A DNA stretch of 64,000 nt from Candidatus Shapirobacteria bacterium. GTDB lineage: Bacteria > Patescibacteriota > Microgenomatia > UBA12405. Each line of letters starts with the position of its first letter. Within the stretch, counting starts at the first letter, position 1. The notes below the pieces were generated by a model. It searched no databases. It saw only the letters and a list, made by a program, of their open reading frames with translations, and was not told the origin of the DNA. Both the position numbers and the translations under genes were made by a program. Location: contig JAQVSI010000001.1 in NCBI GenBank assembly GCA_028700625.1, positions 7,570 through 71,569 of the forward strand, written 5' to 3'. This document shows, piece after piece, positions 37,120 through 64,000 of the stretch.

Positions 37120-37383
37120 ATGGGTAAAGAAATTTTAAGTAATATACCATTTATAAAAAAAATTTTAGACGATAGATGTATAAAAAAAATTTCAAAAAAA
37201 ACAGAATTAAGAGATAACAATAACTCTCTTTCTTTAAATGGAGATACTTTTTATAGAGATAATTCTAGATGGTTATGGATGAATAACGGAAACCCTTCAG
37301 GTGAATGTAGTCTAACTTCTAAAGAATTTGGAAAAATGTTAGACCAAATCGTTCAACGAAAAGTAACAAAAAAATCTAATTAG
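37120..37383 (+). CDS. Hypothetical protein (87 aa)
   Basis: ORF only. Confidence 0.25.
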   Translation: MGKEILSNIPFIKKILDDRCIKKISKKTELRDNNNSLSLNGDTFYRDNSRWLWMNNGNPSGECSLTSKEFGKMLDQIVQRKVTKKSN

Positions 37384-38725: not shown

Positions 38726-38823
38726 AAAAAATTATAGCCCAAAACTATTCATAGGGCTATTTTAAAAACACCTGACAGTTGTCCTACTTTTAAATAACTT
38801 GTTTTTTATTGTAAACTTAAATA

Positions 38824-39495: not shown

Positions 39496-39528
39496 TCTAT
39501 ACTGGGATATTAACCAAATAAAACCCGA

Positions 39529-40722
39529 ATGATTTCACAACCGTTAGCTTCATTACTTCGTCCTAAAAATTTAGAAGATTTTGTCGGTCAAACTCATCTG
39601 GTTGGTCCTCAAAAACCGCTTCGTTTGGCAATCGAAAACCACCAAGTTTTTTCCATGATTTTTTGGGGTCCTCCTGGAGTTGGTAAAACCACATTAGCTC
39701 GAATTTTAGCCAGTGAAGCCGAGGCTACTATTCACGAGTTATCGGCAGTTTCTGCCAGTAAAGATGATATTAAAAAAATTATTGCCGCTTATCGTCCTAT
39801 GGAAAAGAATATTCTTTTTCTAGATGAAATTCATCGTTTTAATAAAGCTCAACAAGATTTTCTACTTCCCTCAGTTGAATCGGGAAAATTAATTTTAATC
39901 GGTGCCACCACTGAAAATCCCAGCTTTGAGGTCATTTCTCCACTTCTTTCTCGTTGTCGAGTTTTTGTTTTAAAAGAATTATCCGACGATGAAATGAGTC
40001 AAATCATCGATAAGGCAGTTCAAAAATTAGCTCCCCTGTCAAGGGGGGGTGGTCGTAAGACCGGAGGGGTTTTAATCAAAAAAGACGCCAAAGATTGGAT
40101 TATTCAAATGGCCAATGGTGATGCTCGTCAATGTATTACCATCATGGATAACGCTTTTACTCTTTATGGCGATTTAAAACTAGAAAGTTTAAAACAAGCC
40201 CTTCAAAATTCTTTTCTCCGTTTCGACAAAAAAGGTGAGGAGCATTACAATACCATTTCCGCTTTTATTAAATCCATGCGCGCCAGTAATGTCGACGCCT
40301 CTCTTTATTATTTAGCCCGAATGATTACTGCTGGTGAAGATCCAAAATTTATTGCCCGTCGTATGGTTGTTTTTGCTAGTGAAGATATTGGCATTGCCAA
40401 TTCTTCAGCCCTGATGTTGGCCAATAATGTTTTCGATGCAGTTATGAAAATTGGCTATCCAGAATGTCGTGAAAATTTAGCCCATGGCGTGGTTTATTTA
40501 GCAAAATCACCTAAAGATAGGTCAGCTTATGAAGCCTATTTATCTGCTCTTAAAGACGTTGAGATTCATGGTAATTTACCAATACCGCTTAATCTCCGCA
40601 ACCCCGAAACCAAATTAATGGAAGACATTGGCTATGGTAAAGGTTACGAAAAATATACCAAAGAGTCTCTTTTACCAAATAAAATTAAAGATAAAAAATA
40701 TTTTATTGAAAAGAAAAAATAA
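39529..40722 (+). CDS. rarA: Replication-associated recombination protein A (RarA/MgsA AAA+ ATPase), carrying an in-frame repeat insertion
   Basis: FWGPPGVGKTTLARILA Walker A, LFLDEIHRFNKAQQD, NGDARQ sensor region. Confidence 0.8.
   Translation: MISQPLASLLRPKNLEDFVGQTHLVGPQKPLRLAIENHQVFSMIFWGPPGVGKTTLARILASEAEATIHELSAVSASKDDIKKIIAAYRPMEKNILFLDEIHRFNKAQQDFLLPSVESGKLILIGATTENPSFEVISPLLSRCRVFVLKELSDDEMSQIIDKAVQKLAPLSRGGGRKTGGVLIKKDAKDWIIQMANGDARQCITIMDNAFTLYGDLKLESLKQALQNSFLRFDKKGEEHYNTISAFIKSMRASNVDASLYYLARMITAGEDPKFIARRMVVFASEDIGIANSSALMLANNVFDAVMKIGYPECRENLAHGVVYLAKSPKDRSAYEAYLSALKDVEIHGNLPIPLNLRNPETKLMEDIGYGKGYEKYTKESLLPNKIKDKKYFIEKKK
40029..40074. repeat. Palindromic element, copy 8, in frame within rarA (encodes ..APLSRGGGRKTGGVLI..)
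   Basis: AGCTCCCCTGTCAAGGGGGGGTGGTCGTAAGACCGGAGGGGTTTTA. Confidence 0.7.
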
Positions 40723-40724
40723 AA

Positions 40725-40973
40725 ATGTATTTTGTCTACATTATTCAATGTAATGATCAAACTCTTTACACTGGTATTACTACCGATCTAGACAGAAGGA
40801 TTAAAGAACATAATAATTCAAAACTCGGTGCTAAATATACTAAAATTAGACGACCAGTAAAATTAGTTTATTCAAAAGAATTTATTGACAGGTCTGAAGC
40901 TTCAAAAGAAGAATCAAAAATTAAAAAATTATCACGCCAAGAAAAATTAGATTTATTAAAAAATTTTAAATAA
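40725..40973 (+). CDS. GIY-YIG nuclease family small protein (UPF0213/YhbQ-like)
   Basis: FVYIIQCNDQTLYTGITTDLDRRIKEH matches the GIY-YIG motif. Confidence 0.7.
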   Translation: MYFVYIIQCNDQTLYTGITTDLDRRIKEHNNSKLGAKYTKIRRPVKLVYSKEFIDRSEASKEESKIKKLSRQEKLDLLKNFK

Positions 40974-41021: not shown

Positions 41022-43139
41022 ATGTTTTCTTTACTAATCACTTTTCTATTATTTTTTATAGTTACAGTTCAACCTGTTAACGCTCAATTATTAGAAGAAT
41101 CCACTTCCAGCGCTCAAATTATCCCCACTGAAATTCCAATAACCGAAATCACACCAATCCCAACCGATATCGCTTCAACCTTAACAGAAAATATTTTAAT
41201 CCCCACCGAAACACCAACATTAACCCCAACTTTAATTCCAACTCCAACTCCAACTCCAACTCCAACTCCAAAAGTTATTGAAAGTGAATCCATAAAATTT
41301 CCCCAAATCACCACCGACAAGGCTGATTATTCTCCAACCGATATTGCTATTATTTCTGGTAATAATTTTTTATCAAATACTCAATACATTTTAAATATCA
41401 CTTCAGACAATTTAAATGTTAATTATCAAATTAATTCCGACGAATCCGGTTCTTTTATTTATAATTATCAACTCGATGGTATTTATCGACCAAATTATAA
41501 AGTTGAAGCCAGAGATTTAAACAACAATATTATTTCCTTCATCACTTTTACCGACAAAAGAAGTGTCCTTTCGGCCACTGTTAATGGACAAAATTCAATC
41601 AATGTTTTTTCCAGAGATTCAATTACTGTCGGAGTAAGTGTTAACACAGATTGGTGGTGGTTTTGGAACAATGATTGGAGATCAACTTCCTGGAGGTTTG
41701 GTAATTCTGGAGAGTGGAATTGTGTTGACACTCCAAACCATCTTAAATCAGGCGATTATTCAGAATTTTTTCAAATAAATGCTCCCATAAATCCCAAAAA
41801 ATATCAATTACAAATCAGAATTCATGGTTTAGAAAATTGTGGAATTTTATTTAAAAGTGATATTTTTACTCTAAAAGATGCTATAACAGTTTCTCTTCCC
41901 GACACCACTCCTCCAATTATTACCATCGATTTATACAACACAAATTTAACCAATCAAGATATTATTGTCTCAGCTTCTACCAATGAAGGCACTTTAAATT
42001 TTACTTCTCACACTTTTGAATCAAATGATTCTTTTACTTTTATTGCCACTGATAGTGTTGGTAACATTGCTACTGAAATTATAACTATCAATAATATCGA
42101 TAAAACCCCACCAACTCTTTTAAACAAAACCGAATTTGGAAACAGTTGGTACAACACCGATCAACTTTCAGTTTTTAATTTTACCGATGAAAATGGCGTT
42201 ATTTCTGGTAATAATCCAACTTGCCAAATTTTCAGCGAAGGTTCTTTTCAAACTTGTTCTGTTGGTTTAAATGTTTGTGATACCGCTGGTAATTGCAATA
42301 CTGATTTAATTTTTTCCAATAGTGCCAACATCGACAAAACTAAACCAATTTTGGGTTTTTCCATAACTCCATCTTCTTCTAATGCCGATAATAATTGGTA
42401 TAGAACTCAGCCAGAAATAAATTTAACTAATATTGAAAATAACCCTTTTATTTTCCAATACAAATGGGATTCTGAAAATAGTTGGACTAATTATAATTTT
42501 TGTTTAAGACCTTCTTTTGAAGGTTCACATACTCTTTATTTCCAATCTCAAGATTTGGCTGGTAATCAGACAAGTTCTCTTATTGAAATTAAATGGGACC
42601 AAACTGAACCATCTATTGCCCCTCAAAACATAAGTGCCAATCCAAACAACACTAGTAATAGTGTTTCTACTATCAAATGGGACCAAGCCATCGACAATAT
42701 TGGCATTGATAAATATGAAATTAAATGGACTTTAAATAACCCTAATAATCCATTTTCTTATTCTAAAACAGTTGGGTTTGATGTTAGAGAAACTGAAATT
42801 GATAAATTAATTGAAGGTCGTTGGACTGTTCAGGTTTTTGCTATCGATCCAAGTGGTTTAAAAAAAGACAATGCTATCGATTTATTTATTATTAAAAATA
42901 GCGAAATTATTTTTAATGATGTTCCTGTAAAAACAGTCTTGGCTCAAAAAAAATTATTAACAGAAATTAAAGATACTGATAATCAAATTATTCCGATTCT
43001 AACTTCATTTCCAACTGTTTTAGGCACTTCAACCACTAAAAAGAAATTTAATTTAAAATGGTTTCTTTTAGTTACAATTATGGTTCTTTTATATATCAGC
43101 ATCCGCAAGTACAACAATAAATCAAAAAAAATAATATAG
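41022..43139 (+). CDS. Large cell-surface protein (705 aa): signal peptide, Pro/Thr-rich linker, beta-rich repeats, C-terminal TM plus basic tail
   Basis: Architecture read from translation; (PT)n linker; C-terminal WFLLVTIMVLLYISIRKYNNKSKKII anchor. Confidence 0.45.
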   Translation: MFSLLITFLLFFIVTVQPVNAQLLEESTSSAQIIPTEIPITEITPIPTDIASTLTENILIPTETPTLTPTLIPTPTPTPTPTPKVIESESIKFPQITTDKADYSPTDIAIISGNNFLSNTQYILNITSDNLNVNYQINSDESGSFIYNYQLDGIYRPNYKVEARDLNNNIISFITFTDKRSVLSATVNGQNSINVFSRDSITVGVSVNTDWWWFWNNDWRSTSWRFGNSGEWNCVDTPNHLKSGDYSEFFQINAPINPKKYQLQIRIHGLENCGILFKSDIFTLKDAITVSLPDTTPPIITIDLYNTNLTNQDIIVSASTNEGTLNFTSHTFESNDSFTFIATDSVGNIATEIITINNIDKTPPTLLNKTEFGNSWYNTDQLSVFNFTDENGVISGNNPTCQIFSEGSFQTCSVGLNVCDTAGNCNTDLIFSNSANIDKTKPILGFSITPSSSNADNNWYRTQPEINLTNIENNPFIFQYKWDSENSWTNYNFCLRPSFEGSHTLYFQSQDLAGNQTSSLIEIKWDQTEPSIAPQNISANPNNTSNSVSTIKWDQAIDNIGIDKYEIKWTLNNPNNPFSYSKTVGFDVRETEIDKLIEGRWTVQVFAIDPSGLKKDNAIDLFIIKNSEIIFNDVPVKTVLAQKKLLTEIKDTDNQIIPILTSFPTVLGTSTTKKKFNLKWFLLVTIMVLLYISIRKYNNKSKKII
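41236..41266 (+). repeat. Hexanucleotide (CCAACT)n microsatellite encoding the PTPTPT linker
   Basis: About 5 perfect tandem hexamers. Confidence 0.6.
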
Positions 43140-54424: not shown

Positions 54425-56038
54425 ATGACCTTTAAAGAAAGAATTCAGCTTATAAGTCAAAAAAAACAAAGTACTATTTTGTCAGCTTCTTTGGTTTTAG
54501 CCATAACTTTCAGTATTTCTTCTATTCTTGGTCTTTTAAGAAACCGTTTTCTTTATGCTAAGTTCTTTTCTTGTTGTGTTGCTCAACTTGATGTTTATAA
54601 TGCTGCTTTTCGTCTCCCTGATTTAATTTTTAAACTTTTAGTTACTGGTGTTTTATCAGCTTCATTTATTCCAGTTTTTTCTAGTTATCTACATAAAAAC
54701 AAAAAAGTTGCCGACGAAATCGCTTCAACTGTTATCAATCTTCTCCTTATTACTTTTATTTTCATTTCTCTTATTGCTTTCATTTTCATTAAACCAATTT
54801 CAGCTTTAATTGCTGCTGGTTTTTCCCCAGAGCAGTTAACTCTTATGGTTGGTATTAGTCGGATACTTCTTATTGCTCAAATTTTCTTTCTCCTTAGTAA
54901 TTTTGTTACCGCCATTCTTCAAGTCAATCAGATTTTTATTATTCCAGCTATCTCCCCTATTGTCTACAACCTCTTCATTATTATTAGTATTTTTACCCTA
55001 GCTCCAATTTTTGGAATTTATGGAGTGGCCGTTGGAGCTGTTGTTGGTGCTTTTTTTCATTTAGCTATTCAAATACCAGTTCTTCGTCGTCAAGGTTTTG
55101 TTTACTATCCCATAATTAGAACAAAATTAAGTGGTGTCAGAGAGATTTTTAGACTTATGGTACCAAGAATTTTATCGTTAGGTTTGGGTGAAATTGAAAA
55201 TACTGTTACTTTGTTTTTTGCCAGTTCTCTTGCTTCTGGCTCCATTTCTCTTTTAAATTTAGCCCTTCAATTTATGTATTGGCCTAGCCGTATTTTTGGA
55301 ACTACTGTTGGTCAAGCATCTCTTCCTGTTCTTTCAAAAAATATTGCTAAAAACGAGTTAAATACTTTTAGAAATACCGTTAATCGAATTATTGTTCAAA
55401 GTTTGTTTATTGCCGTTCCCATTAGTGCTTTAATTTTGGTCGAAAGAGTTTCCCTTATTAGACTTCTCTATGGATCTCGTGAATTTCCTTGGACAGCCAC
55501 TATTTTAACTTCTAGAATTTTGGCTTTTTTAACACCAGGGATAATTTGTCAGGCAGTAATTCAGATATTGGTTAGAGCTTTTTATGCTCTTCACAACACC
55601 AAAATTCCTTTCATTGTTTCAACAATTTCCTTAATTGTAAATATTTTAACCAGTTTCTACTTTGTTAGGTTTACAAATCTTGGAGTGATTGGTTTAGCAA
55701 TTAGTGCTTCGGTTGGCAATTTAATTCAACTCTTTGGTCTATTAATTATGTTTATCAGAGTTGTCGATGGTTTCAATTGGTCTCTAATGCTCACTAAATT
55801 CTATAAAATTTTTGTTTCTGCTCTTTTGATGGGTATTAGTAGTTGGTTTTCAATAAAATTTTTAGATCTTTTCATTTTAGACACTACACATGTCATTCCA
55901 GTCTTGACATTAATGATAATTTCTTCAATTGTTGGCCTACTTACCTACATATTTTCTGTTCGTTTTTTAAAACTTGATGAAGCAAATGATTATCAAAAAT
56001 ATTTTATAAAATTTAAAGATTTTATTTTCCACAAATAG
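54425..56038 (+). CDS. murJ: Lipid II flippase MurJ/MviN
   Basis: 537 aa, ~14 TM; N-terminal SILGLLRNRFLYAKF..DVYNAAFRLPDLIFKLL pattern typical of MurJ. Confidence 0.7.
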   Translation: MTFKERIQLISQKKQSTILSASLVLAITFSISSILGLLRNRFLYAKFFSCCVAQLDVYNAAFRLPDLIFKLLVTGVLSASFIPVFSSYLHKNKKVADEIASTVINLLLITFIFISLIAFIFIKPISALIAAGFSPEQLTLMVGISRILLIAQIFFLLSNFVTAILQVNQIFIIPAISPIVYNLFIIISIFTLAPIFGIYGVAVGAVVGAFFHLAIQIPVLRRQGFVYYPIIRTKLSGVREIFRLMVPRILSLGLGEIENTVTLFFASSLASGSISLLNLALQFMYWPSRIFGTTVGQASLPVLSKNIAKNELNTFRNTVNRIIVQSLFIAVPISALILVERVSLIRLLYGSREFPWTATILTSRILAFLTPGIICQAVIQILVRAFYALHNTKIPFIVSTISLIVNILTSFYFVRFTNLGVIGLAISASVGNLIQLFGLLIMFIRVVDGFNWSLMLTKFYKIFVSALLMGISSWFSIKFLDLFILDTTHVIPVLTLMIISSIVGLLTYIFSVRFLKLDEANDYQKYFIKFKDFIFHK

Positions 56039-56055
56039 TCGTATATACTGGATAT

Positions 56056-56634
56056 ATGGCTGCCAAGAAAGAAATTTCTCTATTACCAGAATCCAAAAAT
56101 CCAAGATCTTTTGGAGCACGTTTTCTTAAATGGATTACCACTACTGGTAGAGTTACTATTATCCTTACCGAGCTAATTGTTATTTCTGTTTTTATTTCTC
56201 GCTTTTGGTTAGACCGTAAAAATTCAGATCTTTCAGAGATTTTACGTCAAAAGCAGGCTATTTTAGAAAGTGTTATTCCTTTTGAGCAAGAGTTTATTGG
56301 TCTACAGCAAAGATTAACCTACATAAAAGACTTTTATTCAAATCAACCAGAATATAATAAACAGATAGATTCTCTAATTTCTAGCACTCCTCAAAATCTT
56401 TTTTACGAAAGCCTTTCAATCTTAAAAGATGAAAAATCGAAATCGACTACAATTAATACATCTCTAATTGCCTACAAAGAAGAAGATATCGTTTCTTTTA
56501 TTACCAATCTTATGTTGAATCCAGACATTGATCAAGTTGACGTAAATAGAATCGAGAAAAAAGAAAAAGAGAATCAATATTCAATTTCACTTACCTTATT
56601 TTTTAAAACAGTCAAAACTAATCCTAAAACATGA
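56056..56634 (+). CDS. PilN-like type IV pilus assembly protein (bitopic)
   Basis: N-terminal ISLLP motif (cf. PilN INLLP), single TM, periplasmic domain. Confidence 0.45.
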   Translation: MAAKKEISLLPESKNPRSFGARFLKWITTTGRVTIILTELIVISVFISRFWLDRKNSDLSEILRQKQAILESVIPFEQEFIGLQQRLTYIKDFYSNQPEYNKQIDSLISSTPQNLFYESLSILKDEKSKSTTINTSLIAYKEEDIVSFITNLMLNPDIDQVDVNRIEKKEKENQYSISLTLFFKTVKTNPKT

Positions 56635-57266
56635 TAATAACTAAATCTTGGTCCCAACTTAGACCAATGTATGATTATATTAAAAAACAGACAGAAAATG
56701 AAAAGTTTTTTAAAAACTTAGAAATTGGTGGCACTTTCACCTTAATTGCCATCTTTCTATTTTTCGCTATTATGCCAACCATAATTACTATTTCTTCATT
56801 GATTGGAGATATTAAGTCTAAAGAAGCTTTTATAAAAAAAGTGGATTTAAAGGTTGCTAATATTATTAAAGCTCAAGAATCCTACAGTCAAGTTCAAGAA
56901 AAATACTATTTAATTGAAGAGACCTTTCCTTCTCTGGCTAATTACTACAGTGGAACTTCTAATATTGCTACCATATTTAGAGATTCTTCTTTGAGTATTG
57001 ATCAAATTAGTTTAAACTTGAATGAAAATAAAAATGAAGAAAAAAAATTCTTTAGTTCTTATCAACTCAATCTTAATGGTGAAGGTAACTATTCTTCAAT
57101 TATAGAAATGGTTAAAAAAATGTTAAACAATCGCCGTCTAGTTGACACTACTAGTATCCAGATTAGTCAAGTAAAATCGGATGCTAATCAAGCATCTACT
57201 GAGAATGTTAGGGTCAATTTTTCTAGTAATTTATATTTTTTACCAGATAATAATGAAAAAAAATAA
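56631..57266 (+). CDS. PilO-like bitopic membrane protein
   Basis: TM at ~residue 30-60 followed by a coiled-coil and C-terminal domain; 4-bp overlap with the previous gene. Confidence 0.4.
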   Translation: MIITKSWSQLRPMYDYIKKQTENEKFFKNLEIGGTFTLIAIFLFFAIMPTIITISSLIGDIKSKEAFIKKVDLKVANIIKAQESYSQVQEKYYLIEETFPSLANYYSGTSNIATIFRDSSLSIDQISLNLNENKNEEKKFFSSYQLNLNGEGNYSSIIEMVKKMLNNRRLVDTTSIQISQVKSDANQASTENVRVNFSSNLYFLPDNNEKK

Positions 57267-57564
57267 ATTATCTTCTTATTTTATATTTATATCTTTTATC
57301 ACCTTTTTAACTATATTTTTATCGATAGTTCAAAAAAGTTATTTTAGCTTAAAAAAGCCTCAGAATATAGTTGAAAAAAATGCATTATTAAAAGAAATTA
57401 GCCCAAATCTAGATCTTTTTGTTATTTCTATTATTGAATCAAAAGGAAAAAATACAGACGATAATTTTGATTTTTCAATCATAAGATCAAGCAAAAACTT
57501 GAATACAAACACAATGATTACTCCAATTGCCAGCCAGGCAGCTGAAGCATTAACAACACCATAA
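57253..57564 (+). CDS. Small N-terminally anchored protein (about 103 aa); start chosen at MKKNKLSS
   Basis: Overlaps the previous stop by 14 nt; TM then soluble region. Confidence 0.3.
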   Translation: MKKNKLSSYFIFISFITFLTIFLSIVQKSYFSLKKPQNIVEKNALLKEISPNLDLFVISIIESKGKNTDDNFDFSIIRSSKNLNTNTMITPIASQAAEALTTP

Positions 57565-58859
57565 TGATTAAAGAAAAAAAAATTCCCACAATATTGGGAC
57601 TATTTATTTTAATAGGGGGACTTTTTGTTGGTGTTTTATTAAACAACAAAAATACTAATTTTATTTCTAAAGCGAGTAGTGATTGCGTTCCCCAAAACCC
57701 ACAAATAACCAATATAACAGACAATTCCGTTGCTTTATCTTTTGTTACTGAATCTTCTTGTCTTTCAACCTTGTTGATTAATAATCAAATTATTAATAAT
57801 TCTGCTGTTTTAGCTAATAGTCAGAAAAGTAAAATTCATTATTTTGATGTCACTAATTTATCAGACAACACTCAATACGAGTATTCTTTTGTTAACGACG
57901 GTAAATCTTATCCTCAATCTCCAAAAATTAAGACGGCTGAAAAACCAAACGGATCAATTCCTTCTTCAAATTTGGCTTGGGGTAGAGTTTTTACTCCAGA
58001 GTTAAAATCAGCAAGTAAGGTTATGCTTTTTATTAATATTCCTGGAGCTGCACCTTTATCTGCTTTAGTGACCACTTCTGGTAATTGGAATATTTCTCTA
58101 GTTAATAGTTTTAATGAATCAAAAACCAACAGATTTAATCCACCTCAAGATACAGTTGAAGAGATTATTGTCATTGATCAGGAAAAACAAACCACTCAAA
58201 TTAGTGCCAATACTTCACAAAACAATCCAGTTCCAGATATTATCTTAGGTCAAAATCAATTTTCCTTACTACCTGTCACTTTTAATGCAGAAACAAACAC
58301 TGGTTTTTTGCCTTCAATTTCTCCAGTTCAAAGTTCTAAAGAATTAGATATTTTAAATCCAAAAGATAACGAACCTCTTTCTACAAAAAAGCCAGATTTT
58401 TTTGGAACTGGGCCAATTAATTCTAAAATAAAAATAGAAGTGCACTCACCCACTGTCTACAAAGGGGAAGTAACTACTCAAAGTGATGGTTCCTGGAATT
58501 GGTCTCCACCATCAGATTTAACTCCAGGAGAACATACTATTACTGCTACTGTTATCGAAAATGGTGTTGAAAAAATTATTTCTCGAAAATTTATCGTTCT
58601 TGCTGCTGACAATTCTCTTGCTTATTCAGCCTCTTCTTCCGCAATTACCTCGACTCCAACTCCAACTACAACCCCAACCCTAACTCCAACCAAAATAATC
58701 ACTCCCACTGTCATTCCAACCATTCGTACTAGTAAACCAAGTACAAGCTCTGGTGTTCCTACAACGGGAAATTCATTTCCTACTTTTATTTTAATTTTAA
58801 CAGCCATTTCTTTTATTAGCCTTTCTCTTTTCTCTCTTAGAAAAGTAATAAAAAACTAA
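57564..58859 (+). CDS. Surface protein (431 aa): N-terminal TM/signal, beta-rich domains, Pro/Thr linker, C-terminal VPTTG plus hydrophobic plus basic tail
   Basis: Read from translation; the C-terminus resembles a sortase-type sorting signal (VPTTG..FILILTAISFISLSLFSLRKVIKN). Confidence 0.4.
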   Translation: MIKEKKIPTILGLFILIGGLFVGVLLNNKNTNFISKASSDCVPQNPQITNITDNSVALSFVTESSCLSTLLINNQIINNSAVLANSQKSKIHYFDVTNLSDNTQYEYSFVNDGKSYPQSPKIKTAEKPNGSIPSSNLAWGRVFTPELKSASKVMLFINIPGAAPLSALVTTSGNWNISLVNSFNESKTNRFNPPQDTVEEIIVIDQEKQTTQISANTSQNNPVPDIILGQNQFSLLPVTFNAETNTGFLPSISPVQSSKELDILNPKDNEPLSTKKPDFFGTGPINSKIKIEVHSPTVYKGEVTTQSDGSWNWSPPSDLTPGEHTITATVIENGVEKIISRKFIVLAADNSLAYSASSSAITSTPTPTTTPTLTPTKIITPTVIPTIRTSKPSTSSGVPTTGNSFPTFILILTAISFISLSLFSLRKVIKN

Positions 58860-58897: not shown

Positions 58898-59833
58898 TTG
58901 ATGATATCTCAAATTAAACTTTTCAAGTCTATTTTAGAAGAACTTCGTCCTATTCAATGGATAAAAAATTTAGCTATTTTTGCTGCTGTAATTTTGAATG
59001 GTCAATTGTTCGATAAAAATTTGTTTATTAAAAGTTTTTTTGCTTTTGTAACTTTTTGCTTACTCTCTTCTTCTTCTTACATAATTAATGATCTTATTGA
59101 TATTGAAAAAGATCGTCTTCATCCAACCAAAAAAAATAGACCAATTGCTAGAGGTGATATTCCAGAATATCTAGGTGTCTTTATTGCTATTATCCTTCTG
59201 TTTTTTGGTTTAGCCATTGCTCTTTTTACCAGTTATCCATTTTTTATTATTTCTCTGATTTTTATCTTACTCCAATATTCTTATTCCTTATTTTTAAAAA
59301 AGAAAGCTATCATAGATATTGTTGGAATTGCTTTGTTTTTCATAATTCGTGCTTACGCCGGTGAATTGGTTACTGGATATCATCTTCCAATTTGGATTAT
59401 GTTAACTGTTATTTTCTTATCACTCTTTATCGCTAGTGGAAAACGTCGCAGCGAACTAGTAAACAGTGGAATCAAAACACGCTCTGCCTTGGCTGGTTAC
59501 GGTAAAACCTTATTGAATTTCTATACCACCATGTTTGCTGTTTGCACTTTAATTACCTACGCTATGTTTACTTTTTTTGAAGAATCAGTAACTTTTTCTG
59601 GATCTGGTATCTTACATAGCTTCCTTTTAGATAATTTTCCAAACGCTTTGAATCGAAAATGGTATATGATCACTCTTTTACCAGTTATATTCGGAATGAT
59701 GCGTCATGGTCAGATTATTTTTGAAATGCAAGAAGGTGAGAGACCTGAAAGAGTTATTGCTACAGACATACCACTTTTACTTTCAGTTCTAACTTGGGGA
59801 TTGATGATGATTGGTATTATCTATGCAATTTAA
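58898..59833 (+). CDS. UbiA-family prenyltransferase resembling decaprenyl-phosphate phosphoribosyltransferase (DPPR synthase)
   Basis: NDLIDIEKDRLHPTKKNRPIARGDI Asp-rich motif characteristic of the DPPR-synthase-like UbiA subfamily; ~8 TMs. Confidence 0.65.
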   Translation: MMISQIKLFKSILEELRPIQWIKNLAIFAAVILNGQLFDKNLFIKSFFAFVTFCLLSSSSYIINDLIDIEKDRLHPTKKNRPIARGDIPEYLGVFIAIILLFFGLAIALFTSYPFFIISLIFILLQYSYSLFLKKKAIIDIVGIALFFIIRAYAGELVTGYHLPIWIMLTVIFLSLFIASGKRRSELVNSGIKTRSALAGYGKTLLNFYTTMFAVCTLITYAMFTFFEESVTFSGSGILHSFLLDNFPNALNRKWYMITLLPVIFGMMRHGQIIFEMQEGERPERVIATDIPLLLSVLTWGLMMIGIIYAI

Positions 59834-61319
59834 TAAAATTAAGAATTTTTTAATTCCACTGTCTTTATTAGTTTTGATGCTAGCTACTCGTTTTTGTTTT
59901 CTAAATTGGGGTAATGGTTTTTTCTTCAATCCAGACGAAAATAATATGGCCGCTTCAATAGCTCAAATGAGTTATTCCAATCTTAATCCTGATTTTTTTG
60001 CTTATGGTCAGTTTCCTCTTTTTCTAACTTTTTTTACTACTCCAAATTATAATTTTTCGACCATTATTTTAACTCTTCGTTTTTGGTCAGCCATTTTTTC
60101 TTGTCTTTCTCTTTTTTTCTTTTATTTAATTTCTAAAAATATTTTTAAATCTCCCAAAGTTAGTTTTATTTTTGTTTTACTGTTAATTTTTACCCCAGGT
60201 CTAATTCAATTAGCTCATTTTGGTACTACCGAATCTCTTTTGATTTTTGTTTTTTCCGCTAACATTTTTTTGTCTTTAAAATATTATCAAAATCAACAAA
60301 AAAAATATTTTCTTTTTTCTGTTTTAATTAGTGCCATAGGTCTTTCTTCAAAAATAACTGCCATCTTTTTTATACTTCCTTTTTACTTTTCTCTTTTTTT
60401 TATTTTTTTAGAAAATAAAAAAATATTAAATTTTATTTCCACCACCTTAATTTTTACTTTTTTCTTTTTATCTTTATCTATTCTTTTTTCACCATTTAAT
60501 ATTATTGATTTTTCCAATTTTAAATCAACCATGATTCATGAAACTTCAATTGCCACTGGTCAACTTAAAATTTTTTATACTCATCAATTTGAAAATTCCT
60601 ATGCCTATTTATTTCAATTTAAAAATATTTTTCCTTATACAAATGGCATTTTTATATTTACTTTATCTTTTTTTGGTTTTTTTATTTTTTTAAAAAATAA
60701 AATTAGAAAAGAATTACTTTTAGTTTTTCTTCCATCAATAATTTATTTTCTCTATGTTGGTCAACTTTTTGTTAAATGGACACGTTTTGTTTCTCCTCTC
60801 TTTTTTATTGGACCATTTTTTTGTCTTTTTATTTTTAAAAAATTTAAAAATGTTTTTCTGACTTTTATTTTAATTATTTTAATGATTAGTCCAGGAATTT
60901 ATTTTTTTCAAAAATATTTTTTACCAGACAATAGAATAACAGCCTCTAATTGGATTAATTCCAATATTCCTCTAAATTCTTATATTTTATCTGAATCCGG
61001 TAATGTTATTAATTTACCTTTATTTTCTTCAAAATTTACTGTAAATAATTTTGATTTTTATAATCCAGAAAATCTAAGCAATTTATCAGCAGAAATAAAC
61101 AAAAGTGATTATATTATTGTTCCGTCTCGACGTGTTTTTAAAAACAATTTTTCATTGACACAAAATTATTATCAACAATTATTTTCAGGAGAAATTGGTT
61201 TTAACGAAATTAAAAAATTTAATAATCAAAAAAGTTTATTTTTAAATTCCGAAAATGCTGAAGAAACATGGTCAGTTTTTGATCATCCAACCATCAGAAT
61301 ATATCAACATGTCAAATAA
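59811..61319 (+). CDS. GT-C fold polytopic membrane glycosyltransferase
   Basis: 502 aa, many TMs, NPDENN motif in first extracytoplasmic loop. Confidence 0.45.
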   Translation: MVLSMQFNKIKNFLIPLSLLVLMLATRFCFLNWGNGFFFNPDENNMAASIAQMSYSNLNPDFFAYGQFPLFLTFFTTPNYNFSTIILTLRFWSAIFSCLSLFFFYLISKNIFKSPKVSFIFVLLLIFTPGLIQLAHFGTTESLLIFVFSANIFLSLKYYQNQQKKYFLFSVLISAIGLSSKITAIFFILPFYFSLFFIFLENKKILNFISTTLIFTFFFLSLSILFSPFNIIDFSNFKSTMIHETSIATGQLKIFYTHQFENSYAYLFQFKNIFPYTNGIFIFTLSFFGFFIFLKNKIRKELLLVFLPSIIYFLYVGQLFVKWTRFVSPLFFIGPFFCLFIFKKFKNVFLTFILIILMISPGIYFFQKYFLPDNRITASNWINSNIPLNSYILSESGNVINLPLFSSKFTVNNFDFYNPENLSNLSAEINKSDYIIVPSRRVFKNNFSLTQNYYQQLFSGEIGFNEIKKFNNQKSLFLNSENAEETWSVFDHPTIRIYQHVK

Positions 61320-61941
61320 ATATTTAACAAAAAAAACTATTAATTTATTTCCTCTTTTTTGGCCAAGATTTTATGTCTATTTAAGATCAATAGTATTGCC
61401 TCTTTTTCAAATTGAATCTCTTTTACCCCCAAAAGGATCAATTTTAGATGTTGGCTGCGGTTATGGATTTACTTCAATTTTTTTTGCTCTTAAAAATAAA
61501 AAGCGTCAAATTTTTGGCTCAGAAATTGAATCAAAAAGAGTTTTATTGGCGAAAAAAGTTTCAAAATCTATTTCAAATATCTCGTTTGAAACTTCAGATT
61601 TGATCAATAAAAATAAATCAAAATTCGATGTTGTTTTGGCAATCGATCTTCTTCACCATATAAATTTTTCTCAAAAAAAGACTTTTTTAAAAGATGCTTC
61701 TTTAAAACTAAAGCCAAAAGGACTTTTAATTATTAAAGATATCGATACTACACCTATACATAAATATTTTTGGAATTATATTCATGATTCAATCATGACC
61801 AAATTTTCCAAACTTTATTTTTTATCTTCTAATCAAATAGAAAATCTTTTAATTAAAAATAATTTTAAAATTATTAAAAAAGGAAAATATAAAAACCTTT
61901 TTTACCCACATATTTTTTATGTTTGTCAAAAAAACTTTTAA
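61255..61941 (+). CDS. Class I SAM-dependent methyltransferase
   Basis: ILDVGCGYGFTSIFFAL motif I; LAIDLLHH motif. Confidence 0.6.
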   Translation: MLKKHGQFLIIQPSEYINMSNKYLTKKTINLFPLFWPRFYVYLRSIVLPLFQIESLLPPKGSILDVGCGYGFTSIFFALKNKKRQIFGSEIESKRVLLAKKVSKSISNISFETSDLINKNKSKFDVVLAIDLLHHINFSQKKTFLKDASLKLKPKGLLIIKDIDTTPIHKYFWNYIHDSIMTKFSKLYFLSSNQIENLLIKNNFKIIKKGKYKNLFYPHIFYVCQKNF

Positions 61942-63646
61942 TTATCAAATATTTTTCATTTTTTCAATTTTTTGTTTATCCTTAATAATCAGGCTTTTTA
62001 ATATTAATTGGGATCAAGGCCAACATCTTCATCCAGACGAAAGATTTTTGACGATGGTAGAAAGCACCATTAAATTGCCAAACTCACTTTCCCAGTATTT
62101 AAATACTGGTGATTCTCCTTTAAATCCATACAACTATAAAGAATTTCAATTTTTCGTTTACGGTACTTTTCCTATTTTTTTAATTAAATACATATCAAAT
62201 TTTATTAATATGGGTGAATATCATCAGGTTTATTTAGTTGGTCGATTTTTTTCTGCCTTTTTTGATTCATTAAACATAATCGGTATTTATTTATTTATGA
62301 AATTTTTAATTAAAGAAAAGAAAAATAAATTTATAGTTTTATTGCCAAGTTTCTTATATGCTTTTTGCGTTTTACCAATTCAGTTATCTCATTTTTTTGC
62401 TGTCGATACTTTTTTAACACCAATTTTATTATTTACTTTTATTTTTCTTGTTTATTGGATTTCCAAAAGAAAAATTATTTTTCTTTTAATCGCTGCCGTT
62501 TTATTTGGGTTAGGCCTTTCAACTAAAATTTCTGCTTATTTATTTTCACCAGTAATTTTACTTTTTTTTATTTATCATTTTTTCACCACTAAAAACAAAA
62601 TACAAACTTTATACTTATCAATTATTTTTTCTCTGATAAGTCTTACTATTTTTAGATTTTTTCAGCCATATGCTTTTGTTGGTTTATTTAAAATAAATCC
62701 AATTTTTGTTGAAAACATGGTTTATTTAAAATCAATGTTAACTAACAAAAATGTTTTTTATCCACCAGAAATTCAATGGTTAAGTAAAACACCTCTAATT
62801 TATCCTCTCTATAACATTTTAGTTTGGGGTCTCGGTTTACCCCTCAGTTTAATTCTTTTTTTAAAAATAAAAAAAACCACCAATCCATTTGTTGTGTTTT
62901 GCATTATTTTTTGGATTCTTTTTCTTTTTATTCAACAAGGTCTTCAATTTACTCACACTATGCGTTATTTTCTACCAATTTATCCATTTATATTTGTTTT
63001 AGTTGGTTTAATTTTTCAAAATCATTTTTCTAAAAAAATTCTTTTTATTTTACTTTCACTGCATGTTATTTATTGTTTGTTCTTTATTTCAATTTACACT
63101 CGGCCACATTCTCGAATTCAAGCCTCAAATTGGATTTATAAAAATATTCCTTCAGAATCAAAAATCGCCAATGAATATTGGGATGATCCGCTTCCTCTTT
63201 ATTTAGACTCTTCTAATTTTTATTCAAACCAAACACTTGATCTTTATTCCCCAGACACTCAAGAAAAATGGCAGAAAATTAACTCCATTTTAGAAGACAC
63301 AGATTATCTTTTTCTTAGCTCAAATCGTCTATGGTCTTCTATTCCGTCAGTTCCCAAAAAATATCCTTTAGCTACTAAATATTACCAAGATCTTTTTGAT
63401 GGTAATTCAAATTTTAAGAAAATAATAGAATTTAATTCTTATCCAGGCATTTCACTCCCTTTTTTAAACAAGTGTTTTTATTTTGGTCCAACTAATTTTC
63501 CTTATTCACAAAATGAAAATAAATGGTTTGAGGTCAACAAAAGTTGTCTTTATCCAGGGATTTATCTTAGAGATGATGTTGCTGAAGAAGCTTTTTCAGT
63601 CTACGATCATCCAAAAGTAATTATCTTTAAAAAAATGATAAACTAA
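61919..63646 (+). CDS. GT-C fold polytopic membrane glycosyltransferase (second paralogue)
   Basis: 575 aa, HLHPDERF motif after TM1; many TMs. Confidence 0.45.
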   Translation: MFVKKTFNYQIFFIFSIFCLSLIIRLFNINWDQGQHLHPDERFLTMVESTIKLPNSLSQYLNTGDSPLNPYNYKEFQFFVYGTFPIFLIKYISNFINMGEYHQVYLVGRFFSAFFDSLNIIGIYLFMKFLIKEKKNKFIVLLPSFLYAFCVLPIQLSHFFAVDTFLTPILLFTFIFLVYWISKRKIIFLLIAAVLFGLGLSTKISAYLFSPVILLFFIYHFFTTKNKIQTLYLSIIFSLISLTIFRFFQPYAFVGLFKINPIFVENMVYLKSMLTNKNVFYPPEIQWLSKTPLIYPLYNILVWGLGLPLSLILFLKIKKTTNPFVVFCIIFWILFLFIQQGLQFTHTMRYFLPIYPFIFVLVGLIFQNHFSKKILFILLSLHVIYCLFFISIYTRPHSRIQASNWIYKNIPSESKIANEYWDDPLPLYLDSSNFYSNQTLDLYSPDTQEKWQKINSILEDTDYLFLSSNRLWSSIPSVPKKYPLATKYYQDLFDGNSNFKKIIEFNSYPGISLPFLNKCFYFGPTNFPYSQNENKWFEVNKSCLYPGIYLRDDVAEEAFSVYDHPKVIIFKKMIN

Positions 63647-63650
63647 AGCT

Positions 63651-64000
63651 GTGAATTTAAACCTAAAAAAAATTCTATTTTGGCAATCAAAAAAAGATTT
63701 TCTTGTTGTTTTTGATCACGATTTTTGGGGAGAAATTTCTTTAATTTTTTTAAATTATTCAATTTGGATTTTTTTCTTTTTTCTTTCTTATCAATTAATT
63801 TCTTTTGATATTAATTTTTTTGGCCGTCTTCTTATTGCCACCATTATTGCCGAATTAATTGAAAGAGGTCTTAAAAAGAAATGTTTTTGGATTAGACCTA
63901 TGTTTAATCGTCGAAAAGTTTCGCCAAAAGGTTTAGTTAATAATTGGTATCACAGTGGTTCTTTTCCGTCGGGCCACACCATGAAAGCCACTTTTTTCTT
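63651..64000 (+). CDS. PAP2-family phosphatase (3'-truncated by window edge; GTG start)
   Basis: KKKCFWIRP (KxxxxxxRP) and SFPSGH PAP2 motifs. Confidence 0.6.
   Translation, partial: MNLNLKKILFWQSKKDFLVVFDHDFWGEISLIFLNYSIWIFFFFLSYQLISFDINFFGRLLIATIIAELIERGLKKKCFWIRPMFNRRKVSPKGLVNNWYHSGSFPSGHTMKATFF

What the first reader, a model, noticed from the sequence alone, without database searches (positions are those of the whole stretch)
58898..64000. UbiA DPPR-synthase-like prenyltransferase, two GT-C glycosyltransferases, methyltransferase and PAP2 phosphatase cluster: polyprenyl-phosphate-pentose glycan pathway
The UbiA protein carries the NDxxDxxxDxxHPxKxxRP motif of decaprenyl-phosphate phosphoribosyltransferases. 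In mycobacteria that enzyme is followed by a PAP2 phosphatase to make the lipid-linked arabinose donor, which is used by GT-C arabinosyltransferases. Here the same logic (UbiA, GT-C, MTase, GT-C, PAP2) appears in a low-GC reduced genome. This implies a lipid-linked pentose (ribose/arabinose-type) envelope glycan with methylation. A third GT-C (37376-38725) lies next to an SDR that could act as a DprE2-like reductase.
Basis: partly seen in the sequence, partly recalled or inferred. Interest (0 to 1): 0.6.

Follow-up and report, generated by a model that had tools for sequence, protein, structure and literature searches.

The report
Lipid-linked pentose surface-glycosylation operon in CPR
A tiny-genome Candidate Phyla Radiation bacterium (Ca. 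Shapirobacteria) carries a conserved operon that most likely makes a lipid-linked ribose-type sugar from PRPP and uses membrane glycosyltransferases to attach it to a cell-surface target outside the cell. This pathway type is known from mycobacteria, Pseudomonas pili and some O-antigens, but I found no paper describing it in this group.

Summary
Five tightly packed, co-directional genes lie at 58898-64000: a UbiA-family enzyme, a GT-C, a SAM methyltransferase, a paralogous GT-C, and a PAP2 phosphatase cut by the window end. A near-identical contig shows one more GT-C-fold gene (DUF2298) before an unrelated helicase.

The UbiA protein is a polyprenyl-phosphate 5-phosphoribosyltransferase. It passes an NCBIfam DPPR-synthase model, its best solved relative is Rv3806c, and 10 of the 12 Rv3806c substrate-site residues checked are invariant in it and 69 relatives.

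UbiA, both GT-Cs, PAP2 and DUF2298 are each kept in 45-48 of 48 related species-level genomes. The methyltransferase belongs to a swap-in cassette; other genomes carry a GalE-type epimerase, DUF362 or GT4 enzymes there. GT-C #2 alleles co-vary with that cassette, whereas UbiA and GT-C #1 do not.

No DprE1/DprE2 was found, so ribofuranose (possibly methylated) is more likely here than arabinose. The SDR at 38824 is generic and not linked to the cluster. There is no dedicated small flippase, and the acceptor is unknown. Candidates are the Thr/Pro-rich, sortase-type surface protein just upstream, or a wall polymer.

This is a new variant of a known kind. All evidence is computational.

The parts
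58898..59833 (+). Polyprenyl-phosphate 5-phosphoribosyltransferase (DPPR/PPPR synthase, UbiA superfamily). It makes polyprenyl-P-ribose-5-P from PRPP. The activity is inferred from sequence.
   Evidence: PF01040 92.8 bits. NCBIfam NF008978 DPPR synthase 209.5 bits against a 207 cut-off; other UbiA subfamilies score under 50 bits. Best PDB hit is 8j8j (Rv3806c), E=7.5e-39. Ten of the 12 Rv3806c substrate-site residues checked (R22, K28, Y70, N73, D77, K87, R90, Q135, Y138, K143) are invariant in this protein and 69 CPR orthologues; Y157 is Phe and K208 varies.
59811..61319 (+). GT-C #1: a constant, membrane-embedded glycosyltransferase with a C-terminal extracytoplasmic domain. It overlaps the UbiA stop codon.
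61255..61941 (+). Class-I SAM-dependent methyltransferase (probable start 61309, 210 aa). It is an accessory cassette gene; the proposed role is methylating the lipid-linked sugar on the cytoplasmic side, which is inferred.
   Evidence: Methyltransf_31/23/12/25/11 hits. Only generic PDB and NCBIfam matches. Present in 7 of 48 loci (including the window's own contig L001), always between GT-C #1 and GT-C #2. No strong transmembrane segment was noticed in the sequence.
61919..63646 (+). GT-C #2: a paralogue of GT-C #1 and the variable-specificity transferase of the system.
   Evidence: PMT_2 34.8 bits. hhalign against GT-C #1 gives probability 100%, E=5.9e-77. The HPDER loop is invariant. Alleles cluster by accessory-gene class: 50.4% identity within a class against 40.8% between classes, with 0 of 2000 label permutations reaching that difference. 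UbiA and GT-C #1 show no such signal.
63651..64000 (+). PAP2-family lipid phosphatase, N-terminal 116 aa only (the full protein is 191 aa). The proposed role is removing the 5-phosphate from polyprenyl-P-ribose-5-P, which is inferred.
   Evidence: The full-length copy on L001 (10509-11084) gives PF01569 37.9 bits. All three catalytic motifs are present in 47 of 47 orthologues, and the C1-C2 loop has a net charge of about +6.7, so it is predicted to be cytoplasmic. Similarity to the Tsukamurella Rv3807c orthologue is at motif level only (E=4e-8). A PAP2 gene lies immediately next to the DPPR synthase gene in Mycobacteriales and in Marivivens as well.
57564..58859 (+). Context and candidate acceptor: a surface protein with an N-terminal TM segment, a Big_13 (Ig-like) domain, a Thr/Pro-rich stalk and an LPxTG-like C-terminal sorting signal (VPTTG, then a hydrophobic helix, then a basic tail).
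   Evidence: Big_13 30.1 bits. The stalk and an xPxTG-type signal recur in nearly all of 58 orthologues, which lie directly upstream of UbiA or are separated from it only by further TP-stalk surface proteins. A role as acceptor is an inference.
54425..57564 (+). Syntenic upstream genes of the same co-directional array: MurJ (54425-56038), PilN-like (56056-56634), PilO-like (56631-57266) and a small TM protein (57181/57253-57564).
   Evidence: MurJ: PF03023 246.5 bits and TIGR01695 262 bits against a 235.6 cut-off. PilN 22.1 bits (just under the cut-off) and PilO 24.8 bits. The order is conserved in the Shapirobacteria loci. A functional link to the glycosylation genes has not been shown.

Best explanation
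This is an operon for extracytoplasmic glycosylation with a lipid-linked pentofuranose.

Step 1 (strongly supported by sequence): the UbiA-family enzyme transfers 5-phosphoribose from PRPP to a polyprenyl phosphate on the cytoplasmic face of the membrane.

Step 2 (inferred): the PAP2 phosphatase, whose catalytic loops are predicted to face the cytoplasm, removes the 5-phosphate and leaves polyprenyl-P-ribofuranose.

Step 3 (inferred): in this genome the cassette methyltransferase may methylate a share of that donor. Related genomes carry a GalE-type epimerase or a DUF362 protein at this place, which would change the pentose instead.

Step 4 (not identified): the donor is flipped across the membrane. 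No small GtrA/SMR-type flippase is encoded here. Candidates are the syntenic MurJ or the GT-C proteins themselves.

Step 5 (fold and catalytic motif shown, donor and acceptor inferred): three GT-C-fold enzymes transfer the sugar outside the cell. These are GT-C #1 (constant), GT-C #2 (whose allele is matched to the sugar-editing cassette) and DUF2298, which lies just beyond the window.

The acceptor is unknown. The best candidates are the Thr/Pro-rich stalk of the sortase-type surface protein encoded immediately upstream, or a peptidoglycan-associated polymer.

Without DprE1/DprE2, the sugar in this strain is most likely ribofuranose or methyl-ribofuranose, not arabinofuranose.
For: Enzyme identity of UbiA:
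- Searches give the family, subfamily and best solved relative.
- One search shows the PRPP, phosphoribose and Mg2+ ligands defined in PMC10994848 are invariant.
- One search gives 30% identity to Rv3806c over 300 aa.

Operon and conservation:
- Genes overlap or nearly abut, and there is no internal terminator.
- UbiA, GT-C #1, GT-C #2, PAP2 and DUF2298 are each kept in 45-48 of 48 species-level genomes.

GT-C nature:
- Pfam hits.
- An invariant D-E loop after TM1.

Link between the GT-Cs and the UbiA product:
- UbiA is the only lipid-sugar synthase in the locus.
- GT-C #2 alleles co-vary with the donor-editing gene (MTase, epimerase or DUF362), while UbiA and GT-C #1 do not.

PAP2:
- Motifs are intact in 47 of 47 orthologues and the loop charge points to a cytoplasmic face.
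- The same DPPR synthase-PAP2 adjacency occurs in Mycobacteriales and Marivivens.

Precedent: PMC11127046 describes a PPPR synthase, flippase and GT-C, with an optional epimerase that sets the pentose. bioRxiv 10.1101/2020.04.19.049825 describes TfpW.
Against: - There is no biochemical or glycan evidence of any kind.
- The DPPR-synthase HMM is passed by only 2.5 bits, and two sister DPPR-synthase models are not passed.
- The PAP2 is no closer to Rv3807c than to undecaprenyl-diphosphatases, so it could simply recycle the lipid carrier.
- No flippase was identified.
- The GT-Cs show no sequence similarity to Emb/Aft enzymes, or to the candidate GT-Cs next to the Lactococcus and Marivivens DPPR synthases. 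GT-C donor specificity cannot be read from fold.
- DprE1/DprE2, a GtrA-type flippase and a polyprenyl-P-hexose synthase could all be encoded in the roughly 90% of the genome I could not see.
- The co-variation test does not correct for phylogeny except by using UbiA and GT-C #1 as internal controls.
Confidence: 0.62

Rival explanations
1. This is a full mycobacterial-type arabinose pathway. DprE1/DprE2 encoded elsewhere in the genome (or the SDR at 38824-39495 acting as DprE2) convert the ribose donor to polyprenyl-P-arabinofuranose, and the GT-Cs are arabinofuranosyltransferases.
Confidence: 0.12
2. The genes are neighbours but do not form one pathway. The GT-Cs use a different donor, such as polyprenyl-P-mannose or -glucose made elsewhere, for PMT-like protein O-glycosylation. 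PAP2 recycles undecaprenyl-PP. The UbiA product serves another purpose.
Against: No GT2-type polyprenyl-P-hexose synthase is present in the locus or in the scanned window ORFs. UbiA and GT-C #1 overlap, which suggests translational coupling, and they stay adjacent in 45 of 48 genomes. In L052, UbiA is followed directly by PAP2-DUF2298. GT-C #2 co-varies with small-molecule-editing genes that make most sense acting on a lipid-linked sugar. Distant Microgenomates again place the UbiA homologue beside GT-C-like proteins and a WecA-like initiating transferase.
Confidence: 0.18
3. The UbiA protein is an ordinary aromatic or lipid prenyltransferase (MenA, UbiA, haem O synthase, or archaeal-lipid type), and the glycan reading is wrong.
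For: It belongs to the UbiA superfamily. A trans-polyprenyl synthase is encoded in the same window (21485-22555).
Against: All such subfamily models score under 50 bits, against 163-210 bits for the DPPR-synthase models. PDB ranking gives Rv3806c at E=7.5e-39, against 4.9e-8 for the next UbiA-family structure. The phosphoribose-binding residues, which PMC10994848 reports as not conserved in the wider UbiA superfamily (K28, Y70, Q135, Y157/F), are conserved here.
Confidence: 0.03

Closest known systems
Three-component extracytoplasmic pentofuranose glycosylation systems (Citrobacter youngae O1/O2 ORF15-ORF14-ORF12, with or without the ORF13 epimerase; Kelly et al. 2024, PMC11127046)
   Same: Both have a PRPP-dependent polyprenyl-phosphate phosphoribosyltransferase of the Rv3806c type, a dephosphorylation step, and a GT-C enzyme that transfers the pentofuranose outside the cytoplasm. 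In both, the identity of the sugar is set by an optional, swappable editing gene. A GalE-type SDR epimerase sits inside the locus in 6 of 48 relatives here.
   Different: The phosphatase is a separate PAP2 membrane protein, not a fused HAD domain. There is no small 4-TM flippase. There are three GT-C-fold proteins from families so far seen with CPR names only, and they are unrelated in sequence to the candidate GT-Cs of the Lactococcus and Marivivens systems. A methyltransferase is used as an editing option. There is no O-antigen context, since this is a monoderm-type CPR cell. GT136 membership could not be tested.
Mycobacterial decaprenyl-phospho-arabinose pathway (Rv3806c UbiA, Rv3807c PAP2, DprE1/DprE2, Emb/Aft GT-C enzymes; PMC10994848)
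   Same: The first two enzyme types match: a DPPR synthase with the same substrate-binding residues, and a PAP2 phosphatase in the same gene cluster. Several GT-C transferases are present.
Pseudomonas aeruginosa Pa5196/PA7 type IV pilin O-arabinofuranosylation (PsPA7_6246-6249 plus the GT-C TfpW; bioRxiv 10.1101/2020.04.19.049825)
   Same: A PPPR synthase feeds a GT-C that O-glycosylates Ser/Thr of a surface protein. TfpW was proposed to act as its own flippase, which would explain the lack of a dedicated flippase here. The locus lies next to PilN/PilO-like genes and a Thr/Pro-rich surface protein.
   Different: No pilin gene is adjacent, and there is no DprE1/E2 or GtrA. The link to pili or to protein acceptors rests on synteny only.
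Protein O-mannosyltransferases (PMT, GT39) and ArnT (GT83)

Membership tests
DPPR/PPPR synthase (Rv3806c-type polyprenyl-phosphate phosphoribosyltransferase) | UbiA-superfamily membrane fold with an Asp-rich NDxxDxxxD motif | tested here: met
   PF01040 92.8 bits. N64-D65-x-x-D68-x-x-x-D72 is present and invariant in 70 sequences.
DPPR/PPPR synthase (Rv3806c-type polyprenyl-phosphate phosphoribosyltransferase) | Scores above the curated cut-off of a DPPR-synthase equivalog model and well above other UbiA subfamilies | tested here: met
   NF008978 scores 209.5 bits against a 207 cut-off, a narrow pass. NF008977 (170 vs 234) and NF008976 (163 vs 474) are not passed. All MenA, UbiA, CyoE, ChlG and GGGP models score under 50 bits. 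The best PDB relative is 8j8j, E=7.5e-39.
DPPR/PPPR synthase (Rv3806c-type polyprenyl-phosphate phosphoribosyltransferase) | PRPP-binding residues defined in the Rv3806c structure (R22, K28, Y70, N73, D77, K87, R90, Q135, Y138, K143, Y157) | tested here: met
   The first ten are invariant in the window protein and 69 CPR orthologues. Y157 is Phe, a substitution also reported in some mycobacteria (PMC10994848). The peripheral K208 is not conserved.
DPPR/PPPR synthase (Rv3806c-type polyprenyl-phosphate phosphoribosyltransferase) | Catalyses PRPP + polyprenyl-P to polyprenyl-P-5-phosphoribose | not testable with these tools
   This needs a membrane enzyme assay.
Mycobacterial DPA (arabinose donor) pathway | Rv3807c-type PAP2 phosphatase in the cluster | tested here: inconclusive
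   A PAP2 with all catalytic motifs is present. Similarity to an Rv3807c orthologue is restricted to 53 residues around motifs C2 (PSGH) and C3 (E=4e-8), and it is no better than similarity to undecaprenyl-diphosphatase models.
Mycobacterial DPA (arabinose donor) pathway | DprE1 (FAD oxidase) and DprE2 (reductase) 2'-epimerase pair | tested here: not met
   None was found in the window ORFs scanned or in six-frame translations of the window plus 79 CPR loci (the queries were two GlcD-like flavoproteins, so sensitivity is limited). The SDR at 38824 shows no DPA-pathway (DprE2) family among its 25 best NCBIfam matches. The rest of the genome could not be searched.
Mycobacterial DPA (arabinose donor) pathway | Emb/Aft-family arabinofuranosyltransferases | tested here: not met
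   [not shown]
Three-component pentofuranose glycosylation system (PMC11127046) | PPPR synthase generating the lipid-linked donor | tested here: met
   See the DPPR synthase rows.
Three-component pentofuranose glycosylation system (PMC11127046) | Dedicated small flippase (4-TM EmrE/ArnE/GtrA-like) in the locus | tested here: not met
   The genes abut with no room for a small ORF. No 4-TM small protein was found among the window's small ORFs. Only MurJ (MOP superfamily; passes the TIGR01695 equivalog model) lies four genes upstream.
Three-component pentofuranose glycosylation system (PMC11127046) | GT-C fold transferase encoded with the synthase | tested here: met
   Two paralogous GT-Cs plus DUF2298. 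Membership of CAZy GT136 specifically was not tested, because no GT136 sequence was available.
GT-C glycosyltransferase superfamily | Multi-TM GT-C fold with an acidic catalytic motif in the first extracytoplasmic loop | tested here: met
   [not shown]
Protein O-mannosyltransferase (GT39) | Uses polyprenyl-P-mannose supplied by a Ppm1/DPM1-type GT2 synthase | tested here: inconclusive
   Pfam PMT/PMT_2 thresholds are passed and NCBI names the protein GT39. No GT2 synthase is present in the locus or the scanned window ORFs, but the rest of the genome was not seen.

The most novel reading that the evidence does not exclude
In Shapirobacteria the pathway O-glycosylates the Thr/Pro-rich stalks of sortase-anchored surface proteins (or pilus-associated proteins) encoded immediately upstream, using ribofuranose-type sugars. 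A swap-in cassette (methyltransferase, GalE-type epimerase, DUF362 or GT4) together with a matched GT-C #2 allele re-codes the surface sugar from strain to strain. That would make it an antigenic or host-recognition diversification system on the surface of an episymbiotic ultrasmall bacterium. It would also be the first protein O-ribofuranosylation system, and it would run without a dedicated flippase.
Probability: 0.2. Interest if true: 0.75.

Novelty: new variant of a known kind. Interest (0 to 1): 0.5.

Why it matters
Almost nothing is known experimentally about the cell envelope of CPR/Patescibacteria, although their lifestyle (attachment to host cells, exposure to phage) depends on it. 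This locus gives a concrete and testable prediction: Shapirobacteria and other Microgenomates spend PRPP on a lipid-linked pentofuranose and display it on their surface.

The enzyme logic is otherwise known from the mycobacterial cell wall (a drug target), Pseudomonas pilin glycosylation (phage defence) and O-antigen side chains.

The core is conserved in 45-48 of 48 species-level genomes despite extreme genome reduction, which argues that it matters to the organism. The cassette that co-varies with one GT-C allele suggests strain-level surface variation.

The analysis also assigns a fold and a likely role to two uncharacterised families: DUF2298 (Chlor_Arch_YYY) and a large CPR GT-C family. 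The enzymes are simple enough to test in E. coli membranes with published assays.

Tried and rejected
1. Sequence searches of both GT-Cs, as single sequences and as profiles, and of a DUF2298 profile against all PDB chains found nothing with E below 0.4. The best rows were a marginal Pmt2 match (E=1.5) and unrelated proteins. Fold comparison was needed instead.

2. hhalign of DUF2298 against GT-C #1 found only a 35-column motif at the start of the C-terminal domain (probability 7.6%). It is not evidence of close kinship.

3. I tried to obtain genuine DprE1/DprE2 sequences from actinobacterial 'plasmid' records to use as probes. The FAD enzyme next to Tsukamurella aftB is GlcD-like, and a further 47 kb held no DprE genes. 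I used two FAD-binding proteins as weak surrogate probes.

4. Looking up the window's 705-aa ORF (41022-43139) in the assembly index found nothing. The window was therefore annotated by Pfam scans, which showed housekeeping genes and nothing else relevant to the pathway.

5. The promoter and terminator scan gave counts at chance level, so operon structure rests on gene spacing and synteny only.

6. The methyltransferase could not be assigned a substrate. Its best PDB and NCBIfam matches are generic (phosphoethanolamine N-MTase, UbiG, BchM, CFA synthase).

7. The idea that the third GT-C and the SDR form a DprE2-like module was rejected.

8. Literature searches combining CPR/Patescibacteria with decaprenyl-phosphate phosphoribosyltransferase, arabinofuranose, O-glycosylation or DUF2298 returned no relevant paper. 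The supplement of PMC11127046 lists no CPR example.

9. I looked for Thr/Pro-stalk proteins next to the UbiA homologue in distant Microgenomates. Only one of eight loci had one, so that association is specific to the Shapirobacteria lineage.

Full report
**1. What is in the sequence**

The window is AT-rich (GC 22-36%). The finding's coordinates hold five co-directional ORFs on the + strand:
- UbiA, 58898-59833
- a GT-C, 59811-61319
- a methyltransferase, 61255-61941 (more likely starting at 61309, as called on an identical JGI contig)
- a second GT-C, 61919-63646
- a GTG-started ORF from 63651 that runs off the window end

Pfam confirms each assignment: UbiA 92.8 bits; PMT_2/PMT for both GT-Cs, above the gathering thresholds; multiple class-I SAM methyltransferase families. 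The truncated last ORF gives only a weak PAP2 hit.

A near-identical 14.9-kb metagenome contig (L001) completes the picture. The PAP2 protein is 191 aa (PF01569 37.9 bits). It is followed by a 710-aa DUF2298/Chlor_Arch_YYY membrane protein (303 bits Pfam; 464 bits TIGR03662) and then an unrelated UvrD/PcrA-type helicase. The functional unit therefore extends about 3.3 kb beyond the window.

Neighbouring genes overlap or are at most 4 nt apart, apart from a 38-nt gap before UbiA. No terminator-like hairpin lies within the array, and promoter-like matches are at chance level. Homologues are named Candidatus Shapirobacteria, a CPR/Microgenomates lineage. A 100% identical GT-C #1 sits on a 72-kb NCBI MAG contig, where it is annotated 'glycosyltransferase family 39'.

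**2. The UbiA protein is a phosphoribosyltransferase, not a prenyltransferase**

- NCBIfam's DPPR-synthase equivalog NF008978 is passed (209.5 bits against 207, a narrow pass). Two sister DPPR-synthase models score 170 and 163 bits. Every quinone, haem, chlorophyll or archaeal-lipid UbiA model scores under 50 bits.
- The best solved relative is M. tuberculosis Rv3806c (8j8j), E=7.5e-39. The next UbiA-family structure scores 4.9e-8.
- Identity to Rv3806c and to annotated DPPR synthases from Rhodococcus, Tsukamurella, Marivivens and Lactococcus is 29-32% over the full length.
- The structure paper (PMC10994848) defines the Mg2+/PRPP ligands and states that the phosphoribose-binding positions are not conserved in the wider UbiA superfamily. 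Mapping them shows R22, K28, Y70, N73, D77, K87, R90, Q135, Y138 and K143 are invariant in the window protein and in 69 CPR orthologues.
- Y157 is Phe, as in some mycobacteria. Only the peripheral K208 varies.

**3. The other core proteins**

GT-C #1 and GT-C #2 are paralogues (hhalign probability 100%, E=5.9e-77). They share a conserved HPDE loop after TM1 and a conserved C-terminal AEE..V.D.P motif. Neither single sequences nor profiles hit any PDB chain.

The GT-C #1/#2 family is large, with 1143 clusters (at 50% identity) at E of 1e-30 or better. Every sampled member that carries an organism name is from CPR Microgenomates or Patescibacteria.

The PAP2 keeps Kx6RP, PSGH and Rx5Hx3D in 47 of 47 orthologues. 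The loop carrying the first two motifs averages 7.6 Lys/Arg against 0.9 Asp/Glu. Together with a basic N-terminus and two intervening TM segments, this predicts a cytoplasm-facing active site (this is an inference from the positive-inside rule). Its similarity to an Rv3807c orthologue is at motif level only, no better than to undecaprenyl-diphosphatase models.

**4. Comparative genomics**

A scan of one genome per species returned 74 loci from Shapirobacteria and other Microgenomates. Several are mislabelled 'uncultured Gammaproteobacteria'.

In Shapirobacteria the order is fixed: MetRS<, S20<, MurJ>, PilN-like>, PilO-like>, small TM protein>, surface protein>, UbiA>, GT-C #1>, GT-C #2>, PAP2>, DUF2298>, UvrD>.

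Among 48 complete UbiA-to-DUF2298 intervals:

| Gene | Loci with it |
|---|---|
| UbiA | 48 |
| DUF2298 | 48 |
| PAP2 | 47 |
| GT-C #2 | 47 |
| GT-C #1 | 45 |
| GT4 Leloir transferase | 20 |
| the window-type methyltransferase | 7 |
| GalE-type NAD epimerase (PF01370) | 6 |
| DUF362 protein, at the same position | 5 |
| FkbM methyltransferase | 4 |
| extra PMT_2 GT-C | at least 5 |

These assignments rest. The methyltransferase count includes L001, the window's own near-identical contig.

GT-C #2 alleles track the accessory gene. Mean identity is 50.4% within a cassette class and 40.8% between classes, and 0 of 2000 label permutations reach that difference. UbiA (+0.6) and GT-C #1 (-0.5) from the same genomes show no such structure. 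For example, L006 and L007 both have 83% UbiA identity to the window. L006, which has the methyltransferase, has 63% GT-C #2 identity. L007, which has the epimerase, has 32%.

This ties GT-C #2 to whatever the cassette modifies. The simplest reading is that the cassette edits the lipid-linked pentose and GT-C #2 is the transferase matched to the edited donor.

More distant Microgenomates (45-49% UbiA identity) put the UbiA homologue next to a WecA/MraY-family initiating transferase, a GT-C-like protein and two unassigned membrane proteins. This is again a lipid-linked glycan context.

**5. What is missing**

No DprE1-like flavoprotein or DprE2 was found:
- not among the window ORFs scanned with Pfam;
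- not in six-frame translations of the window plus 79 CPR loci probed with two FAD_binding_4 proteins (this is a weak probe).

The SDR at 38824-39495 is a generic classical SDR. Its best NCBIfam matches are unspecific. It is divergently transcribed from the third GT-C and co-directional with RarA. That GT-C is a separate ArnT-like family.

No small 4-TM flippase is encoded in the locus or among the window's small ORFs. MurJ, four genes upstream, passes the MurJ equivalog model and is probably the lipid II flippase. Whether it also serves this pathway is unknown. I could not search the remaining roughly 90% of the genome.

**6. Most likely mechanism**

- Shown by sequence: a PRPP-dependent polyprenyl-phosphate phosphoribosyltransferase; a catalytically intact PAP2; three GT-C-fold proteins with an intact acidic loop; operon organisation and deep conservation.
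- Inferred: PAP2 removes the 5-phosphate on the cytoplasmic face, as Rv3807c does. The cassette methyltransferase (no strong TM segment was noticed) methylates part of the lipid-linked ribose. The donor is flipped by an unidentified route. GT-C #1 transfers the unmodified sugar, GT-C #2 the edited one, and DUF2298 acts as a further transferase or ligase.
- Without a 2'-epimerase, the sugar here is most likely ribofuranose or methyl-ribofuranose.

**7. Acceptor candidates**

The gene immediately upstream (57564-58859) encodes a protein with an N-terminal TM segment, a Big_13 domain, a Thr/Pro-rich stalk and a C-terminal VPTTG + hydrophobic + basic sorting signal. The stalk and an xPxTG-type signal recur in nearly all of 58 orthologues.

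In 23 of 59 relatives, one or two further surface proteins are inserted between it and UbiA. Most of them have PT-repeat stalks and a conserved '...PSPTRIVLPxAG...' C-terminal anchor.

Ser/Thr-rich stalks are the classic substrates of PMT-type GT-Cs, and Pmt4 is the best fold match. P. aeruginosa TfpW, a GT-C, O-arabinosylates pilin from the same kind of donor (bioRxiv 10.1101/2020.04.19.049825).

Several observations point instead to a peptidoglycan-associated polymer:
- some DUF2298 orthologues carry a LysM domain;
- MurJ is syntenic;
- distant relatives pair UbiA with a WecA-like enzyme.

The data do not decide between these.

**8. Comparison with known systems, and novelty**

The closest conceptual match is the three-component pentofuranose system of Kelly et al. 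(PMC11127046): a PPPR synthase, a flippase and a GT-C, with an optional epimerase that sets the sugar.

Natural comparators fetched here show the same modular theme:
- Lactococcus plasmid: hypothetical membrane protein, DPPR synthase, HAD phosphatase, GtrA;
- Marivivens plasmid: large hypothetical protein, small EamA transporter, GT4, DPPR synthase, divergent PAP2;
- Mycobacteriales: glf, glfT2, PAP2, DPPR synthase, then a 620-670-aa gene annotated 'ZomB' at the position of mycobacterial aftB.

The CPR locus differs in five ways:
- a mycobacterial-style PAP2 is combined with non-Emb/Aft GT-Cs;
- there are three GT-C-fold proteins, from families so far seen with CPR names only, one of them DUF2298;
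- no dedicated flippase or DprE pair is present;
- a methyltransferase is used as an editing option;
- the locus is linked to sortase-type Thr/Pro-stalk proteins and PilN/O-like genes.

Database pipelines already name some orthologues 'decaprenyl-phosphate phosphoribosyltransferase' and 'GT39'. I found no paper that discusses the pathway in CPR.

I rate it a new variant of a known kind, of moderate interest. It is not surprising in mechanism. It is a concrete, testable handle on the almost unknown envelope glycobiology of CPR bacteria.

Noticed in passing
window 57564-58859; relatives e.g. L031:8941-9978, L027:8638-9969, L056:8711-9967: Surface proteins lie directly upstream of UbiA. The window protein has a Thr/Pro-rich stalk and a VPTTG-type sorting signal. 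In 23 of 59 relatives, one or two extra no-Pfam ORFs (115-651 aa) are inserted there. Most of them share an N-terminal 'YLVxxNQDxRxxA' segment, Cys-rich cores, PT-repeat stalks and a conserved C-terminal 'GPSPTRIVLPxAG(V/F)(D/E)FP + hydrophobic ...GFLILL' anchor. This may be an uncharacterised sorting signal.
   Followed up: partly
window 56056-57564: PilN-like (22.1 bits, just under the Pfam cut-off) and PilO-like (24.8 bits) genes, plus a small TM protein, sit between MurJ and the surface protein. There is no PilM, pilin or ATPase nearby. The order MurJ-PilN-PilO-small-surface protein is conserved across Shapirobacteria.
   Followed up: partly
[not shown]
   Followed up: yes
L014:10650-11723, and equivalents in L036, L046, L062, L073: A DUF362 protein (about 351-364 aa) occupies the slot where other genomes have the GalE-type epimerase. 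The GT-C #2 alleles of the DUF362 and epimerase classes resemble each other (54.9% identity) more than either resembles the methyltransferase class (about 36%). DUF362 may therefore be an alternative sugar-editing enzyme.
   Followed up: partly
L064-L071 (Levybacteria, Chisholmbacteria and unnamed Microgenomates): Distant UbiA homologues (45-49% identity) sit in a different conserved block: TatD, an unassigned protein of about 498 aa, a GT-C-like protein, a 117-134-aa 3-4-TM protein (possible flippase, no Pfam hit), a WecA/MraY-family transferase, then UbiA. In L069 a convergent PEGA/SH3 surface protein follows; the other loci have a convergent 271-330-aa ORF there that was not scanned.
   Followed up: partly
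L038 (two adjacent UbiA ORFs): In one genome two adjacent ORFs both match UbiA (72% and 73% identity to the window protein). I did not check whether this is a tandem duplication or one gene split in the assembly.
   Followed up: no
window 37376-40973: A third PMT_2 GT-C (ArnT-like 'LDE' loop) is divergent from an SDR-RarA-GIY-YIG gene string. An MscL gene and an 87-aa ORF with no Pfam hit lie on its other side. I found no evidence linking these to the pentose locus.
   Followed up: yes
window 41022-43139, 20286-21488, 17543-19876: Three large ORFs have little or no annotation: 705 aa and 400 aa with no Pfam hit, and a 777-aa protein with only a HerA/DUF87 ATPase domain (33.1 bits, cut-off 23.2). 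A tyrosine recombinase (16626-17495) lies next to the last of these.
   Followed up: no
loci L006, L008, L009, L011 and others: Many species-representative MAGs that clearly belong to Shapirobacteria (64-83% identical UbiA, in the same synteny where the flanks were recovered) are titled 'uncultured Gammaproteobacteria bacterium' in their records.
   Followed up: no
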